In this document: positions 4,387 to 43,816 of the stretch, piece by piece
Numbering within the stretch: position 1 is the first letter of the stretch
How the letters are laid out: every line of letters begins with the position of its first letter
From: a virus
Taxonomy: Duplodnaviria > Heunggongvirae > Uroviricota > Caudoviricetes
Length of the DNA stretch: 45,189 nt
Strand: one strand, 5' to 3'
IMG/VR virus record: IMGVR_UViG_2617270960_000003
Coordinates: 1 to 45,189 of that record
The notes under the pieces: model-generated
Seen by the model: only the letters and a program-made list of their open reading frames with translations
Database searches by the model: none
What the model was told of the DNA's origin: nothing
Program-made: the position numbers and the translations under genes

Positions 4387-7300
4387 CTAGCATCCAGCGC
4401 GGACGGTTAAAAATCTCAGACCATTGCGCGTCACTATCAACCGGCAGGACGAATAAATATCGTTATTCTCCCGCTCATGTTTAGCGCCGCAGAATGCCAC
4501 CGCTGGAATAACAATTTGCCTGTCAAAAGGCTGATCGTCATAAATCCTGACGGTGATGGTGCCACTGGCATAAGTGCCCGTCCGCGGGAAAGACTTACCC
4601 ACCGTTTTGACAATATCGCCTTCAATCTGATTGGCTGACAGTTTCCCCTTAATCTGACAGTTCTCATTAATCGTGACGTTGTTGAGCGTCCCGGAGTTCG
4701 CATTCACACTGCCACTGATATCCGCATTTTTAGCAGTCAGCTTTCCGTCCGGTGTCAGGGAAAATGCCGGTGGATTTCCACCGCTGGTAATGGTGGGGGC
4801 CGTCAGGCGTTTCAGGAACACGTCGTTCATGAATATCTGATCGCCCTGACCAACAAACATCGGTTTTGTGTTGCCATTCGCAGGATTAACCATCGCAATC
4901 CTGTCCGCCGCCAGCAGCACCTGACTCTGCATGCCGTCAGGGGTGTTCTCAATACCGACACCAATACCCGCGATATAAAGGCGTCCGTCCTGCATCTGCT
5001 GCAGCTTCACAGCCCACATGCTGTTCAGGTTATTATTTGTATCAACCTGAACCTTCTGTATCTGCTGAATTGCCGCACTCTGGTCTTCCAGTTTCTTATT
5101 GACGGTCTGCGTGATTTCATTGCTGACATCCGTAATGGACGTCCTGATTTCAGCCAGGTCAGGCGCAAGCTGACCGTTATCAATCTGCGTCCACAGCTCC
5201 TGAGCCAGATGGGTTTTCCCTATCTCGCCTTTGAAAAAATCCAGATAGCCGGATGCATCATCGCTCGCCCGACCGACGGCCTCCACAAATGCCGATTTGC
5301 CTACGGTGTTCACACTGCGGGTATAAAAGTAATAATCATGGCCCGGTTTGATATTGATACTGGCGGCTATCCAGTACAGCGCCGTACCAAGATAGCGGGC
5401 TGTGGTTTCAACCTGCCTGATATCCGCAATCCGCTTTTCCGAGAACCAGAACTCAAACTGTACCGTCGGATCATAAACCGCAAGATGCGGCGTGGCGGTT
5501 ATCTGAAAATAGCCCGGCGTCAGCTCAATCCGCGACGGCGCTGCCGGTGCGGCGATCCGGAACAATACCGATGCCGGATCGCCCTGCTGTCCCCATGCAT
5601 TTACCGCCCGGACTGTCAGCGTGTACCGCCCCAGCGCCAGCTGCGTGAAGCGATATGTGGTTTCCGTCGTCCGGGCCGTGCTGACCAACCGCTCACTGCC
5701 GTCGTCCGCTGCCACGGTCAGGCGCAGACTGAAGCGCACGCCCTTCACCACCCGCGGCGTGTCCCATTTAGCCTGCGCCAGATACTGGCCGTCAGCTGCG
5801 CTCACCTCCACCGTCAGGTGCTGTACTGCCGGTGGGATGACGCTGTTCAGGGAGCCTGACTGCGGCTCAAAGCGGGCACCGTTATCCACGATGGCTTCTT
5901 TTTCCGGTACGTGCTGCACCGCCGTGATGGCAAAGGTGCCGTCCGTGTTTTCCCGGATGGAGACACAGCGGAACAGGCGACGGCGCAGTGACGGCAGGGA
6001 GAGTCCCCACACCCCGTATGTCTCCACACCATCAGGCAGGGTACTGACCTGTATCCGGTCCGGCGCGGGGTGTTCGGTGATGTCCACACTCACCGGCTTA
6101 CCGCTGCCGTTAATCAGGTTCACCGTGGCGGCACCGGTCTCCGGCAGGGTAACCTCACGGTCCAGCGTCAGGGTGCGGGTGGCAGCATCAATGGACAGGA
6201 CACGTCCGCCGGTCAGGGTCCCGGCATAGTCATTATCACAGATTTCAATAATGTCACCGGGTGTGTGCCGCAGCCCCTGAGACCCGAGCGTGAAATCCAC
6301 CGTCTGCGTTTCCAGCAGTTCGGTCTTTATCACCCACAGTCCGGCACGGTGGGCCTGACCGCGGCTGGTACAGCCGAACGCGTCCATCTTCAGCAGATTG
6401 CGCCCGTAGCGCAGTATGGCTTCCGGGTCTTCCACCAGTTCCGTGGAGGTCTGCCAGCCGTTCTGCGGGTCGGTGTAATTCACCTCCACCGCCGTGTGCC
6501 GGTCCTTCAGGGCACTGAAGCTGTAGCGGAACCCCACGCCGTTATCATCCACCACCACATCGCTGTTGGTGTACGGCCACACCACATCCGACAGGCGGTC
6601 CTGAACAAACGTCAGCATCTGGCCGTTCCATACCGGCATACAGCGCATCGCCGAGCAGAAATCACTGAGAACATCCCACGCCTTACGCTGTTGTGCCAGG
6701 TACGCATTGAAGGTCATCCGCGGCTCGGTGCCCCCGAAGCCATCCGGCACCATCTGGTCGCAGTACTGCCCGATGGCATACAGCGCCCACTTGTCCACAT
6801 CCGCCGCCCCCAGACGTTTTCCCATGCCGTAGCGCGGGTGAGTCAGCATGTCCCACAGACACCAGGCCGGATTGTTGCTGTATGCCGGTTTCAGACTGCC
6901 GTCCCAGATACCACTGTACGTGCGTTTTTCCGGGTCATAGTTTGACGGCACCTGGATGATGCGACCGCGGATATGGTAGTTCACCGTCATCTGCTGACCA
7001 CCAAACTGCTCCGCATCCACCTGCATCCCCACAATGGCCGTGTTCGGGTAGCACTGTTTCACATCGATGATTTCGGTGTATGACGACCACAGCGTTCTGT
7101 TCTGCAGCTGGTCCGTGGTGCTGTCCGCCGTCTCCCTGACCATCCGGATGTTAAAGGGGCGGGGAGGCAGATTATCCAGAATCACCGAGGCCAGGAACTG
7201 TGAGGTGGTCTTGCCGTTAATGGTGACATCCTTTTCTGTCACCCAGTTACCGTTACGCTGTAACTGAATCAGCAGACGGACAGAGGACGGATTACGGTCA

Positions 7301-7683
7301 CCCTTTGACGTGGTCTCCACCAGTGACTGCACCCCGAAGGTCACCCGCAGGCGGTCAATGTTCGCTGACGTAATGGTGCGTGTTACCGGTTTTGCCCTGG
7401 TCACTTCGACACCCAGTACAGTTTCAGAGCCGGAGGACTCAAAGCCTTCCGGTGGTATCTGCTCCTGCTCCCCGGCACGCCAGACCGCGGTCACACCGTG
7501 TATCACGGGATTACCGTCCGTGTCCGTCAGCGGGGTTTTGTTCACCAGAATACTCTGCAGGCCTTTCACCGGGCCTTCTATCGGTCCCTCACCAATCGCA
7601 TCAATCACGCTCATCATCTGCGTGGATTTGAGATTGTCTTTCGCCTCACGCGGTGTGTGCGCCTTGCCGCCACCTTTGCCCAT
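4387..7683 (-). CDS. J: tail tip host-specificity protein J, 1098 aa; 3' end appears frameshifted or truncated
   Basis: ORF track; near-collinear with lambda J from [22 protein letters not shown] onward; ORF ends about 60 codons short, with J-like C-terminal peptides in the other two frames of 4160-4386. Confidence 0.85.
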
Positions 7684-7786
7684 TACATCACCTCTTACCT
7701 TGATAATTGTTCACTCACAAAAACAACAGGCACCTCACCGGGTGCCTGCGTCATGACGGAATAAAATTTCTGAATATCTTCACATT

Positions 7787-7814
7787 TTCACACACTGACT
7801 GTGGCGCGTATAAT
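7787..7814 (+). promoter_or_regulatory. candidate sigma70 promoter in the I-J gap (TTCACA-16-TATAAT), antisense to the tail operon
   Basis: -35 TTCACA at 7787-7792, 16-bp spacer, consensus -10 TATAAT at 7809-7814. Confidence 0.35.
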
Positions 7815-7885
7815 TTCGCTGCGTTAGTGTTTTTTTGCCCGAGTAACAAAAACAACTCCTTCACATTGATCTTCATTTGTCTGTC

Positions 7886-7918
7886 CCCGCAGCTCCGCGA
7901 TCACTGCGGGATTTTTTT
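7886..7918 (+). terminator. rho-independent terminator on plus strand in the I-J gap
   Basis: Hairpin CCCGCAG...CTGCGGG followed by ATTTTTTT on the plus strand. Confidence 0.45.
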
Positions 7919-7923
7919 ATGTT

Positions 7924-8604
7924 TTATCCCTGTCGCCCGATAACCACGACCTTTCCGCCCCCGCCTTCATCACGGGTGCTGATGTCCTGGGATATACGGC
8001 GGGAGCCAACCAGCATTTCCCCGTAAGGCACCGGCATCGGGTTCCCCTGGGCAATCATGTTATCCAGCGAGGAAAAGTACGTGTTCTGTCTGCCGTTATC
8101 CGTTGCGCGGTAATCCGGTGTTTTTGCCTTCGGGGCCAGCATCTGGGCCACACCGCCCAGAATCATGCTGGCTCCAAGTGAAAACAGCATCGTGGTGGCA
8201 GAAAAACCACCGGCTGCCAGGGCTGAACCCCATAACGCCATTGATGCCCCGGCAGTGAAGAAAGAGCCCACGATGGCTGCCGCCCCCAACACAATCTGCA
8301 GTCCACCCTTTCCGGCCCCGGCCAGTCGCGGCACAATGTGGATGACCGTTCCCTCACCCAGCTGTTCGTGAAGGCGGGCGTACACCACCTCCGGTGCCGT
8401 GTCTTCACCGGCAATACGTATCTGGTACCAGCCTTCGTTCATCTGACGGCGAAAGCCCGGCATCTGCATCGACAGGGCGCGGATGGCTTCCGCTGCCGTG
8501 TTCACATACAGGCTGAGGCGGCGGCCAAATCGTTGCAAATCCCCGTGAAGGCAGATGTGTGCCAGTGGCGGTGACGCCAGACAGAATGCGTTCGTCGTTG
8601 CCAT
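7924..8604 (-). CDS. I: tail assembly protein I, 226 aa
   Basis: ORF track; LASP...ICLHGDLQRFGRR...AIRAL...GWYQIRIAG and C-terminal NTYFSSLDNM match lambda gpI as recalled. Confidence 0.85.
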   Translation of the reverse strand: MATTNAFCLASPPLAHICLHGDLQRFGRRLSLYVNTAAEAIRALSMQMPGFRRQMNEGWYQIRIAGEDTAPEVVYARLHEQLGEGTVIHIVPRLAGAGKGGLQIVLGAAAIVGSFFTAGASMALWGSALAAGGFSATTMLFSLGASMILGGVAQMLAPKAKTPDYRATDNGRQNTYFSSLDNMIAQGNPMPVPYGEMLVGSRRISQDISTRDEGGGGKVVVIGRQG

Positions 8605-30027: not shown

Positions 30028-30060
30028 GGAGTTTACTCACATCTGACAAAATCAATATAA

Positions 30061-30300
30061 ACAGCCCCTCCGGAGAGGGGCTGGAGAGTGGCGCTATGTG
30101 CCATTGCATGGTGCCGGGTGCCTCCCGGTGAATTCAGTACCAGCACCTGAATCCGCGATTATCCCATATACCTACTCGCTGATTGCCCCTCCGCACAGGG
30201 GGATTCACCATGCGAAATTTTTTAACAAACTTCCCGCTGGCCAGACAATAATCGCCAGCCTGAATTATGAGCAACGTAGCATTTTACGGGAAAACTGTTT
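30061..30300. repeat. copy 1 of a diverged ~240-bp direct repeat beginning with hairpin AGCCCCTCCGGAGAGGGGCT
   Basis: Shared blocks with copy 2: agcccctccggagaggggctg, gcatggtgcc.ggtgcctcccggt.aattcag, gggggattcaccatgcga, ttttaacaaa, cagacaat. Confidence 0.6.
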
Positions 30301-30520
30301 TCTGCAGTAAAAAGGCCCGCCGGAGCGAGCCTGGAAGGATAGCGGTCATGTGATGCCGGTTTCCCGGTAACTCAGCATCGGTATCTGAGTCAACGTTTTC
30401 TCTACTGGGTCATTTCCGATACGTTCCGCCTTCCGGCAGACTTTCATCACGTCAGAAAATATAGCACCCTGAGTAACAGGACAGTACTCAGAATTCAGGA
30501 AACTGTGACACATCCTGCAC

Positions 30521-30760
30521 AGAAAAGCCCCTCCGGAGAGGGGCTGAAGTATAGCCTAATTTCTGTCTGTCGCATGGTGCCAGGTGCCTCCCGGTAAATT
30601 CAGCCTGTCTACTGAATTTGCATGTTCTCTGGATCATACACTTTGCCAGATGCCCCGCCGCTGAGGGGGATTCACCATGCGATGTAATTTTTAACAAATT
30701 CTCCGGCAGCCAGACAATCATCAAGCTGTGGAATTGTGAGGTATTTAAAAATTTCAACGG
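30521..30760. repeat. copy 2 of the diverged ~240-bp direct repeat
   Basis: Same shared blocks as copy 1; on the minus strand each hairpin is followed by a T-rich run (terminator-like). Confidence 0.6.
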
Positions 30761-30975: not shown

Positions 30976-31052
30976 TGGACCGCCATCGAGAACTCGAACC
31001 CCGCGCAACCAGCTTCGAAGGCTGGCGCTCTATCCCGATGAGCTAATGGCGG
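30976..31052 (-). tRNA. tRNA-Arg (anticodon UCG)
   Basis: Hand-folded cloverleaf: acceptor CCGCCAT/ATGGCGG, D-stem GCTC/GAGC, anticodon stem CCAGC/GCTGG with loop CTTCGAA, T-loop TTCGAGT (T-stem has two G-U pairs), 3' CCA. Confidence 0.6.
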
Positions 31053-31059
31053 TATGTGA

Positions 31060-31135
31060 TGGTGGCCCTTGCTGGATTTGAACCAGCGACCTGGCGATTA
31101 TGAGTCGCTCGCTCTCACCACTGAGCTAAAGGGCC
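31060..31135 (-). tRNA. ileZ: tRNA with CAU anticodon, ileX/ileZ-like (tRNA-Ile2 or Met)
   Basis: Minus-sense GGCCCTTTAGCTCAGTGGTGAGAGCGAGCGACTCATAATCGCCAGGTCGCTGGTTCAAATCCAGCAAGGGCCACCA; canonical cloverleaf; near-identical to E. coli ileX as recalled. Confidence 0.8.
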
Positions 31136-35507: not shown

Positions 35508-35663
35508 TTACTCCTCAGGTTCGTAAACTGTGAAGACAGCGACCTCCGTCTGGCCGGTTCGGATTCGTACCTCGCAGAGGTCTTTCCTCGTTACCAGTAC
35601 AGTCACAATGACGGTTAAACAGATGACGATCAGGGCGATTAACATCGCCTTTTGCTGCTTCAT
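35508..35663 (-). CDS. hok: Hok/Gef family type I toxin, 51 aa
   Basis: MKQQKAMLIALIVICLTVIVTVLVTRKDLCEVRIRTGQTEVAVFTVYEPEE is near-identical to HokD/RelF as recalled. Confidence 0.85.
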   Translation of the reverse strand: MKQQKAMLIALIVICLTVIVTVLVTRKDLCEVRIRTGQTEVAVFTVYEPEE

Positions 35664-35899
35664 AGCCTGCTTCTCCTTGCCTTTCGGCACGTAAGAGGCT
35701 AACCTAGATTTGCCGTTCATAGATTGAGCCTCAGATTAATGTTAAGCGTCTTGCAGGACGCATAATGTTAACTGTGGCTTTTCTCTATCTGCCTTTGGTG
35801 TTCATGCTTGAGGCAGATAGCCTCAAGCACCCGCAGCAATTTTACTTAACTCCCCTTTTCCCACAAATCGTTTTTATCCCTATTGGTAATGTTCTCCCG

Positions 35900-42464: not shown

Positions 42465-42530
42465 AACCATCACCTATTAGGTTGCGCCCAAATTATTAGG
42501 CATAGCCTATTGACAAGTAATTAGGCATTT
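42465..42530. promoter_or_regulatory. left operator region (inverted copy of the 22-bp site plus extra TTAGGC half-sites)
   Basis: ATTAGGCATAGCCTATTGACAA at 42495-42516 is the exact reverse complement of 41851-41872; extra ttaggc at 42521-42526 and attagg at 42471-42476. Confidence 0.5.
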
Positions 42531-42714
42531 CCTATAGTTTTCCCATACCAACCCATCCCACACAATACAGGGCAATACCTCGAGTTACCAGGCAGTGGTC
42601 AGGGGTTAAGTAGCCAGCCCGAGGCGTAAGAACATGACGGCAGGGTTCAACTTTAATAACTATGCAGCAGGTTTTTGTTCCGCTACCCCGGCGTTAAGGG
42701 GAAATGAGGTCAGC

Positions 42715-43248: not shown

Positions 43249-43816
43249 TAGCTAACCAACGAAGCTAAGGTTGGTAATTAAGGAGTTCTCCACGGGTGAG
43301 GTGGAGTGCGTGCGCCGGACACGGGTGAGCATCCGGCACTGACAGTTTACTGAAAGGATATTTCCCTGAAAAGTCAGACCATAACGCGAAAGCGCACGGC
43401 GAGGTAGCTGGTTCATAGATAGCCTGTCGTTAAATTTTCGTCGACCGTGCGCTTCCGGTTGTGGCAATCCGCGAAATGGCGCGGCGGTAAGTATGGCGGG
43501 GTTATTCCTTCCACCGTTGAGGACACTGGGTTGTCAGGTTGACCATACGCTTAAGTGACAACCCCGCTGCAACGCCCTCTGTTATCAATTTTCTGGTGAC
43601 GTTTGGCGGTATCAGTTTTACTCCGTGACTGCTCTGCCGCCCTTTTTAAAGTGAATTTTGTGATGTGGTGAATGCGGCTGAGCGCACGCGGAACAGTTAA
43701 AACCAAAAACAGTGTTATGGGTGGATTCTCTGTATCCGGCGTTAATTGTTAACTGGTTAACGTCACCTGGAGGCACCAGGCACTGCATCACAAAATTCAT
43801 TGTTGAGGACGCGATA

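What the first reader, a model, noticed from the sequence alone, without database searches (positions are those of the whole stretch)
7787..7918. Orphan promoter-terminator unit antisense between I and J (sRNA candidate)
The ~240-bp I-J gap has a near-consensus promoter (TTCACA-16-TATAAT) on the plus strand, opposite to the tail operon. About 70 nt downstream is a strong hairpin plus T7 terminator, with no ORF between. This predicts a ~100-nt transcript; prophage-encoded regulatory sRNAs are known in E. coli.
Basis: partly seen in the sequence, partly recalled or inferred. Interest (0 to 1): 0.5.

Follow-up and report, generated by a model that had tools for sequence, protein, structure and literature searches.

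The report
Known prophage small RNA PasB

Summary
The 240-bp gap between tail genes I and J has a TTCACA-16-TATAAT promoter match at 7787-7814 (+). A hairpin plus seven T ends at 7918, and the stretch between has no ATG-started reading frame.

The unit is pasB. The gap is 99.2% identical to prophage PP6 of E. coli E2348/69, and 7836-7918 is 100% identical to the published 83-nt PasB (Pearl Mizrahi et al. 2021, Table S6). The published northern probe matches 7891-7913 exactly. PasB is northern-validated, depends on Hfq and has about 37 RIL-seq partners. A 2026 preprint (Zhu, Shabalina, Storz) maps its distribution.

My own additions:
- **Seed:** six of ten RIL-seq partner fragments have 9-11-nt perfect complementarity, all within 7857-7879. 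Four of these sites lie on translation start regions.
- **Hfq motif:** four A-A-N triplets sit just upstream of the seed.
- **Rival ORF:** the 41-codon minus-strand reading frame is not conserved.
- **Promoter:** An invariant TCTGA-N6-TCACA box (CRP-like) lies upstream; its role is untested.
- **5' end:** unresolved, 7821 predicted against 7836 published.

Verdict: already known, low interest.

The parts
7761..7787 (+). Conserved upstream box ATAAAA-W-TTCTGAA-NN-TCTTCACATTT. It contains the dyad TCTGA-N6-TCACA (7769-7784, centre 7776.5), which resembles a CRP site.
   Evidence: The box is invariant in the BLAST-selected set. In a set chosen only by the 3' half of the RNA, 48 of 48 unique units that keep the upstream region have both half-sites invariant, while 4 of 6 spacer positions vary. 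The pattern alone is not significant in the window: 1 found against 0.44 expected. Its function is inferred and was not tested.
   Evidence: Found by the promoter scan. Across 53 unique related units only the leading T's are conserved; the rest varies (TTCTGT, CCGGCA, TTTGCA, TTGAAA and others).
7809..7814 (+). -10 hexamer TATAAT (promoter P1). It predicts a start near G7821.
   Evidence: Found by the promoter scan. Family conservation has the pattern expected of a working -10: A7810 100%, T7811 96%, A7813 96%, T7814 98%.
7825..7830 (+). Alternative weak -10, TAGTGT (P2). It would start transcription at 7836/7837, which is the published 5' end.
   Evidence: T7825 and A7826 are 100% conserved. 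The published RNA-seq 5' end maps to 7836. The matching -35 is poor. Which start is real remains unresolved.
7821..7918 (+). Primary transcript predicted from P1 (98 nt).
   Evidence: Based on promoter geometry. GCGTTA at 7821-7826 is at least 94% conserved. The fold is given.
7836..7918 (+). PasB as published (83 nt).
   Evidence: This stretch is 100% identical to E2348/69. Coordinates come from Table S6 of PMC8550237, mapped through L001.
7845..7856 (+). Four A-A-N triplets (AAC AAA AAC AAC), a likely contact for the distal face of Hfq.
   Evidence: Read directly from the sequence. The A positions are 83-100% conserved in the family. The Hfq role is inferred from the known A-R-N rule (abstract of PMC4104026).
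7857..7879 (+). Seed region UCCUUCACAUUGAUCUUCAUUUG. It is single-stranded and includes the PasB/PasB-2 SNP at 7862.
   Evidence: Six of ten RIL-seq partner fragments have 9-11-nt perfect complementarity, all inside this stretch. Controls gave a mean of 0.42-0.47 fragments and a maximum of 3-4 in 1000 trials. The stretch is unpaired in the predicted folds.
7886..7918 (+). Intrinsic terminator: stem 7886-7892 with 7904-7910, an 11-nt loop, then A and seven U (7912-7918).
   Evidence: Supported. The helix is 97% paired across 21 diverse units, with two compensatory pairs. The published northern probe matches 7891-7913 exactly. The published 3' end maps to 7918.

Best explanation
The unit is pasB, a self-contained sRNA gene of about 165 bp. 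It sits between the stop codon of tail gene I and the hairpin that precedes J, and it points against the late operon.

In lysogens host RNA polymerase transcribes it from its own sigma-70 promoter and stops at the intrinsic terminator ending at 7918. This gives an 83-98-nt RNA that Hfq binds and stabilises.

The RNA acts in trans by base pairing. Its single-stranded stretch 7857-7879 pairs with mRNAs, often at or next to the start codon or Shine-Dalgarno sequence (napF, tolC, caiF, yijD). It also pairs inside coding regions (rpoS, ler). The most likely outcome is blocked translation initiation, changed mRNA decay, or both.

**Shown by others on identical sequence:** the transcript, its size, its Hfq dependence and its Hfq-linked partners.

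**Shown here:** identity with PasB, conservation of the -10 and the terminator, and complementarity between the seed and the partners.

**Inferred:** the direction of regulation (repression), the A-A-N/Hfq distal-face contact, and control of the promoter by a host dimeric regulator (the best match is cAMP-CRP) through the invariant TCTGA-N6-TCACA box.
For: **Identity**
- The gap is 99.2% identical to E2348/69 PP6, and 7836-7918 is 100% identical.
- Table S6 of PMC8550237 gives PasB at NC_011601.1 minus strand 1466343-1466261, 83 nt, between E2348C_1436 and E2348C_1437. Its probe is the reverse complement of window 7891-7913.

**Published function**
- log2 fold change in the hfq deletion strain is -6.8 (activating condition) and -2.4 (non-activating condition).
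- The RNA was confirmed by northern blot and has 37 RIL-seq interactions.

**Distribution**
- It occurs in 1116 of 5426 complete E. coli genomes, usually as one copy. The preprint reports 1,158 PasB hits.

**Family analysis**
- The -10 and the terminator are conserved and the body is mostly unstructured.

**Seed**
- Six of ten partner fragments carry 9-11-nt perfect matches to 7857-7879.
- Four of the six cover start-codon or Shine-Dalgarno regions.
- The preprint independently proposes a seed just upstream of the terminator.

**Phage lambda comparison**
- The lambda I-J gap is 60 bp. It has the pre-J hairpin but no such unit.
Against: - No experiment was done on this window's strain. Expression is inferred from a 99.2% identical locus, and one of the two differences (G7808, T in E2348/69) lies directly upstream of the -10.
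- The published 5' end (7836) is 15 nt downstream of the start predicted from TATAAT, so the promoter assignment or a processing step is unresolved.
- The original authors found no common target motif for PasB by MEME.
- No target has been validated by reporter fusions or compensatory mutation, and no phenotype is known.
- The CRP-like box lies at -44.5 from the P1 start, 3 bp off the canonical class II position. It fits a class I position (about -60.5) only if the weak P2 is the real promoter.
Confidence: 0.9

Rival explanations
1. The RNA works mainly in cis. Being fully complementary to the late tail-operon mRNA just downstream of I, it would pair with that transcript or collide with late transcription during lytic growth, and so tune J expression or mRNA processing. 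Conversely, the abundant late mRNA could act as a sponge for PasB.
For: The position between I and J and the antisense orientation are kept in every related unit examined, including very divergent ones and tandem pairs. Complementarity to the late mRNA follows from the arrangement.
Against: - The RNA does not overlap the J ribosome-binding site (J starts at 7683) or the I coding region (stop codon at 7924-7926).
- The late operon is silent in lysogens, the state of the E2348/69 cultures in which PasB was abundant and Hfq-bound with trans partners.
- The listed RIL-seq partners are other genes, not the I-J region.
- The two modes are not mutually exclusive.
Confidence: 0.12
2. The gap encodes a small protein on the minus strand (41 codons, 7876..7751, MKINVKELF...), followed by the minus-strand terminator at 7749..7726. 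The plus-strand signals would then be incidental.
For: The reading frame and a downstream terminator-like hairpin exist. One phage record annotates a 32-codon hypothetical protein in the equivalent place.
Against: - The frame is broken by a stop codon in E2348/69 and in the commonest O157-type alleles.
- In other variants the frame loses its ATG or shifts.
- Unit lengths differ by non-multiples of three.
- The published transcript is on the plus strand.
Confidence: 0.02
3. The promoter and terminator matches are chance signals in an AT-rich spacer and have no function.
For: One 11/12 promoter match in 45 kb is not far from chance (0.49 expected). The region has no Rfam family. Fold energies are not unusual (z = -0.7).
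Against: There is direct published detection of the RNA from identical sequence. The -10 and the terminator are conserved across diverged units. The complementarity to partners is non-random.
Confidence: 0.02

Closest known systems
PasB (E2348CN_0006), prophage PP6 of EPEC E2348/69. Sources: Pearl Mizrahi et al. 2021, Sci Adv (PMC8550237); Zhu, Shabalina and Storz 2026, bioRxiv 10.64898/2026.05.13.724894.
   Same: The RNA sequence is identical over the 83 published nucleotides. The flanking genes (I and J), the orientation and the terminator are the same. The whole 240-bp gap is 99.2% identical.
   Different: There are two substitutions outside the RNA: T7700 (G in E2348/69) near the J ribosome-binding site, and G7808 (T in E2348/69) directly upstream of the -10. 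The host strain is different and was not studied.
PasB-2 and other PasB variants in O157:H7, O26, O111, ST131 and Stx-converting phages
   Same: They share the unit architecture, upstream box, -10, A-A-N stretch, AAYUCC and AAUCUUC motifs, and the terminator.
   Different: The commonest allele has A instead of C at 7862 ('position 27' in the preprint), which lies inside the seed defined here. Stx-phage versions are only about 77% identical and have different central seed bases and 5' hairpins. Target sets probably differ.
Other prophage-encoded Hfq sRNAs of pathogenic E. coli: PasA/PasC, PasD/STnc100, HnrS (EcOnc10-12), AgvB/AsxR, DicF
   Same: All are carried on lambdoid prophages, expressed in lysogens, Hfq-associated, and act in trans on core and virulence genes.
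   Different: There is no sequence relationship. Those RNAs lie near Q, lysis or late-leader regions, or in the dicB operon, and several are processed from longer transcripts. PasB lies inside the tail operon in antisense orientation, with its own promoter, and is usually single-copy.
CyaR (cAMP-CRP-activated core sRNA), offered as a functional analogy only
   Same: If the upstream box is a CRP site, PasB would likewise be a catabolite-responsive Hfq sRNA that pairs with ribosome-binding sites through a C/U-rich seed.
   Different: CRP control of PasB is untested, there is no sequence homology, and the CyaR comparison rests on my own background knowledge.

Membership tests
PasB sRNA | Sequence identity with the PasB RNA defined in E2348/69 (NC_011601.1 1466343-1466261, minus strand) | tested here: met
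   Window 7836-7918 is identical in all 83 positions, and the gap is 238/240 identical. The published probe matches 7891-7913 with no mismatch.
PasB sRNA | Location between tail assembly gene I and tail tip gene J of a lambdoid prophage, antisense to them | tested here: met
   Pfam Lambda_tail_I matches 7924-8604 (-) and the J domains match 4387-7683 (-). [quoted passage not shown]
PasB sRNA | [quoted passage not shown] | tested here: met
   The stem is 7886-7892 with 7904-7910, followed by seven U. It is 97% paired across 21 units.
PasB sRNA | A transcript of about 83 nt detectable by northern blot or RNA-seq | not testable with these tools
   Published for the identical sequence in E2348/69. 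No expression data exist for this window's strain.
Hfq-dependent base-pairing sRNA | Abundance depends on Hfq, and the RNA is physically associated with Hfq and with mRNA partners | not testable with these tools
   Published values: log2 fold change of -6.8 and -2.4 in the hfq deletion strain, and RIL-seq chimeras with about 37 partners.
Hfq-dependent base-pairing sRNA | An accessible seed complementary to its partners | tested here: met
   Six of ten partner fragments have 9-11-nt perfect matches to the unpaired stretch 7857-7879. Controls reached at most 3-4 such fragments in 1000 trials.
Hfq-dependent base-pairing sRNA | Regulatory effect on a target shown with compensatory mutations | not tested
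   No such experiment was found in the two papers that mention PasB.
CRP-activated promoter (considered, not claimed) | A 22-bp site with TGTGA-N6-TCACA core, centred near -41.5 (class II) or -61.5, -71.5 and so on (class I) | tested here: inconclusive
   The core TCTGA-N6-TCACA matches 9 of 10 positions and has A/T flanks. The centre is at -44.5 from the P1 start and -60.5 from the P2/published start. Canonical positions are taken from my own background knowledge. The pattern alone is not significant; the support comes from its invariance.
CRP-activated promoter (considered, not claimed) | Transcription depends on crp/cya and responds to glucose | not testable with these tools
   There is only circumstantial evidence. 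PasB is higher in overnight LB than in DMEM mid-log culture. Spf, which I know from the literature as CRP-repressed, goes the other way. Stationary phase or low oxygen would explain this equally well.

The most novel reading that the evidence does not exclude
The PasB family, including the diverged copies in Stx phages and the tandem pairs, is switched by a host carbon-status regulator. The best match is cAMP-CRP, acting through the invariant TCTGA-N6-TCACA box. The RNA would then be a class II-type Hfq sRNA: A-A-N repeats plus a U tail. It would let a tail-operon-embedded prophage gene reprogramme host genes such as napF, tolC, caiF, yijD and rpoS when glucose runs out. Allelic differences in the seed (for example C/A at 7862) would give different prophages different target sets. 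None of this is in the two published PasB papers, which do not discuss the promoter.
Probability: 0.3. Interest if true: 0.4.

Novelty: already known. Interest (0 to 1): 0.15.

Why it matters
That is a useful check on the scan, but it adds no new biology.

PasB still has no assigned function, validated target, mapped promoter or known regulator. Three leads from this analysis can be tested directly:
- a 23-nt seed supported by the published interaction data;
- likely start-codon targets (napF, tolC, caiF, yijD);
- an invariant regulator-like box upstream of the promoter.

These could help explain why about a fifth of complete E. coli genomes keep this small gene inside a prophage tail operon.

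Tried and rejected
- **Rfam.** A gathering-threshold search of the whole window and an E-value search of 7600-8050 found no family for the gap. The weak hits (Ref84, Hrs1, Trp_leader; E = 0.6-2) only reflect the terminator.
- **Minus-strand 41-codon reading frame.** Rejected because it is not conserved.
- **Conserved RNA structure beyond the terminator.** RNAalifold on 21 diverse units keeps only the terminator helix. The 5' hairpin differs between variants. Single-sequence fold energies are unremarkable.
- **RNAduplex on partner fragments.** It gave long, loop-ridden duplexes and uninformative z-scores for most targets. I replaced it with a longest-perfect-match test with controls.
- **Scan of species-representative genomes for the upstream box.** Nearly all 42 hits were chance matches in unrelated phyla. 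Only a hit in an E. albertii contig is taxonomically plausible, and its sequence could not be examined because it lies at a contig end.
- **Looking for a mapped transcription start of the O157 homologue.** The supplements of the EHEC dRNA-seq/Term-seq paper (PMC7547250) are not held, so the question of P1 versus P2 stays open.
- **HnrS (EcOnc10-12).** I checked it as a possible identity. It is a different, 66-nt, multicopy sRNA.
- **Other regulator motifs for the upstream box.** FNR matches only 6 of 10 core positions. A Cra-like TGAA-N4-TTCA dyad is embedded, but its centre is variable. IHF, RcsB and sigma-54 do not fit. These comparisons used consensus sequences from memory and are leads only.

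Full report
**1. What is in the sequence**

The window is a lambdoid prophage of E. coli. The minus-strand frame 4387-7683 carries the full set of Pfam domains of tail tip protein J. The minus-strand frame 7924-8604 matches Lambda_tail_I. Between them lies a 240-bp gap, 7684-7923.

On the plus strand, against the tail operon, the consensus scan finds TTCACA-16-TATAAT at 7787-7814, an 11/12 match. It also finds a terminator-like hairpin. Folding gives the stem 7886-7892 with 7904-7910, followed by A and seven U ending at 7918.

Only two promoter matches of 11/12 or better exist in the whole window, against 0.49 expected by chance. The predicted transcript has no ATG. The only plus-strand frame across it (7707-7943, TTG start) begins upstream of the promoter and ends beyond the terminator.

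- a terminator-like hairpin with a U-run at 7749..7726, just upstream of J;
- a 41-codon reading frame at 7876..7751.

**2. What it is**

The gap occurs in 1116 of 5426 complete E. coli genomes, almost always once, and PGAP annotates nothing there. One of the best matches is E. coli O127:H6 E2348/69, at 99.2% identity, again between the tail assembly gene and gpJ.

A literature search led to the 'Pas' sRNAs of that strain. Table S6 of Pearl Mizrahi et al. 2021 (PMC8550237) lists PasB as follows:
- locus tag E2348CN_0006;
- NC_011601.1, minus strand, 1466343 to 1466261, 83 nt;
- prophage PP6, between E2348C_1436 and E2348C_1437;
- northern probe AATCCCGCAGTGATCGCGGAGCT.

The alignment shows that 7836-7918 is identical to PasB. 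The whole gap differs at two positions only, 7700 and 7808. The reverse complement of the probe matches 7891-7913 without mismatch and nowhere else in the window.

Rfam has no family for this RNA. HnrS, another recently described prophage sRNA, is a different molecule.

**3. What is already known about PasB**

These points come from the papers, not from my own tests.
- PasB was found by Hfq RIL-seq and confirmed by northern blot.
- Its level falls strongly in an hfq deletion strain (log2 fold change -6.8 and -2.4).
- It ranks 15th by number of interactions, with 37.
- It is more abundant in overnight static LB than in mid-log DMEM.
- Its partners include ler, bfpB, bfpI, perB, map, ftsZ, galE, napF, tolC, caiF, fabR, hflX and the rpoS 5' region.
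- The 2026 preprint by Zhu, Shabalina and Storz reports 1,158 PasB hits, often as the only Pas sRNA in a genome. It places PasB inside an operon of phage structural genes.
- Neither paper discusses the promoter.
- No target has been validated and no phenotype is reported.

**4. The family and what is conserved**

BLAST against phage records and two pattern scans of IMG/VR gave 53 unique related units. All those checked lie between I and J. They include copies only about 77% identical, in Stx1-, Stx2- and Stx2c-converting phages and in BP-4795.

Phage lambda has only a 60-bp I-J gap. That gap holds a hairpin plus T-run before J and no such unit. PasB therefore looks like an insertion of about 165 bp between the I stop codon and that hairpin.

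Conserved features across the family:
- **The -10 hexamer.** It shows the signature of a working element: A7810 100%, T7811 96%, A7813 96%, T7814 98%.
It keeps only its leading T's.
- **GCGTTA at 7821-7826.** This is the start predicted from TATAAT, and it is at least 94% conserved.
- **Structure.** Only the terminator helix is structurally conserved: 97% of cells paired, with two compensatory pairs. The body is A/U-rich and mostly open.
- **A-A-N triplets.** Four lie at 7845-7856 and their A's are conserved.
- **Body motifs.** AAYUCCnU (7854-7861) and UUAAUCUUC (7866-7874) are conserved.

The minus-strand 41-codon frame is not conserved. It has a stop codon in the E2348/69 and O157 alleles, and a lost ATG or shifted frame elsewhere. 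I reject it as a gene.

**5. Seed and targets (my analysis of published partners)**

I fetched ten RIL-seq partner fragments, with 30 nt added on each side, from NC_011601.1. I then looked for the longest perfect complementarity to the 98-nt RNA. Six of the ten have 9-11-nt matches, and all six fall within 7857-7879 (UCCUUCACAUUGAUCUUCAUUUG):

| Partner | Match length | Window position | Position on target |
|---|---|---|---|
| napF | 11 nt | 7859-7869 | -5 to +6 of the start codon |
| fabR/yijD | 11 nt | 7857-7867 | -17 to -7 of the yijD start (Shine-Dalgarno region) |
| tolC | 10 nt | 7870-7879 | -3 to +7 of the start codon |
| rpoS | 10 nt | 7869-7878 | +33 to +42 |
| caiF | 9 nt | 7857-7865 | +4 to +12 |
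| ler | 9 nt | 7857-7865 | near the 3' end of the coding region |

In controls:
- Shuffled PasB gave a mean of 0.42 fragments with a match of 9 nt or more (maximum 3 in 1000 trials).
- Random fragments from the window gave a mean of 0.47 (maximum 4 in 1000 trials).
- The antisense strands of the same ten fragments gave none.

This supports the preprint's seed proposal. It also suggests that PasB often occludes translation start regions.

The SNP that separates PasB from the commonest allele PasB-2 ('position 27', window 7862; C here, A in O157-type copies) lies inside this seed. The window carries the E2348/69-type allele.

**6. Open points**

*The 5' end.* TATAAT predicts a start near 7821 and a 98-nt RNA. 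The published end, taken from RNA-seq coverage and approximate northern size, is 7836 (83 nt). A second, weak -10 (TAGTGT, 7825-7830, with T7825 and A7826 invariant) would start at 7836/7837 but has a poor -35. Processing of a 98-nt primary transcript is the alternative. I could not resolve this, because the EHEC end-mapping supplements are not held.

*The regulator.* Directly upstream of the -35 lies a block (7761-7787) that is invariant except for its central bases. I built a set chosen only by the 3' half of the RNA. In it, all 48 unique units that keep the upstream region have TCTGA-N6-TCACA with both half-sites unchanged, and four of the six spacer positions vary. This pattern suggests the operator of a dimeric regulator.
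- It matches the CRP core at 9 of 10 positions and has A/T-rich flanks.
- Its centre (7776.5) is at -44.5 from the P1 start, 3 bp off the class II position. It is at about -60.5 from the published 5' end, close to the class I position. The canonical positions are from my own background knowledge.
- Higher PasB in LB than in DMEM fits CRP activation. Stationary phase or low oxygen would explain it equally well.
- The pattern by itself is not statistically unusual in the window.

I rate CRP control at about 0.3.

*A cis role.* Action against the late I-J mRNA during lytic growth is possible, but nothing yet supports it.

**7. Verdict**

The element is the already described and validated sRNA PasB, so novelty is 'already known' and interest is low. 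The seed-target analysis, the A-A-N motif, the non-conserved -35 and the invariant upstream box are modest additions that make PasB's unknown function and regulation testable.

Noticed in passing
window 7726-7749 (minus strand): A terminator-like hairpin with a U-run lies just upstream of the J start, in the direction of the tail operon (fold z = -3.2). Related phages keep it through compensatory changes (GGCACC..GGTGCC against GGCATC..GGATGC). Phage lambda has an analogous hairpin plus T-run in its 60-bp I-J gap. It seems to be an old feature of the I-J junction, separate from PasB.
   Followed up: partly
window 42510-42538 (+): This is the only other sigma-70 match of 11/12 or better in the window (TTGACA-17-TATAGT). 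It lies about 1 kb upstream of the DicF match at 43591-43642 and is possibly the dicB operon promoter.
   Followed up: no
window 30053-30241, 30517-30710, 30979-31135 (all minus strand): Two STnc100 copies lie next to two tRNA genes. The 2026 preprint argues that STnc100 and PasD share an ancestor. This prophage may therefore carry several sRNA genes besides PasB.
   Followed up: no
window 35658-35832 (minus strand): A full-length match to the sok antitoxin RNA suggests a hok/sok-type toxin-antitoxin locus in the prophage.
   Followed up: no
L011 9949-10147; also L066 and L086: Some IMG/VR phages carry two PasB-like units in tandem, 179 bp apart. The first unit is very diverged in its body and terminator. 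It still keeps the upstream TCTGA-N6-TCACA box and the AACUCCUU motif.
   Followed up: partly
L171, L175, L181-L185, L188, L189, L191, L192: About a dozen IMG/VR loci keep the PasB body and terminator, but everything left of about window position 7818 (box, -35 and TATAAT) is replaced by unrelated sequence. These copies may be promoterless or driven differently.
   Followed up: no
IMG/VR unit u44: In one copy the homology breaks off right after the -35 region and unrelated sequence follows, interrupting the promoter. The inserted sequence looks like an insertion element but was not identified.
   Followed up: no
L210 (NC_011601.1 3102386-3102495): RefSeq annotates rpoS of E2348/69 as frameshifted. 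The RIL-seq partner named 'nlpD.E2348C_3010.IGR' is in fact the 5' coding region of rpoS, and it carries a 10-nt perfect match to PasB 7869-7878.
   Followed up: partly
L007-L009, left 180 bp of the I-J gap (O157:H7 and others): In most genomes only window 7758-7923 is shared. The J-proximal part of the gap is replaced by a longer, unrelated segment with its own GC-rich hairpin (GAAACCCCGGTATC...GATACCGGGGTTTTC), giving a 342-bp gap.
   Followed up: no
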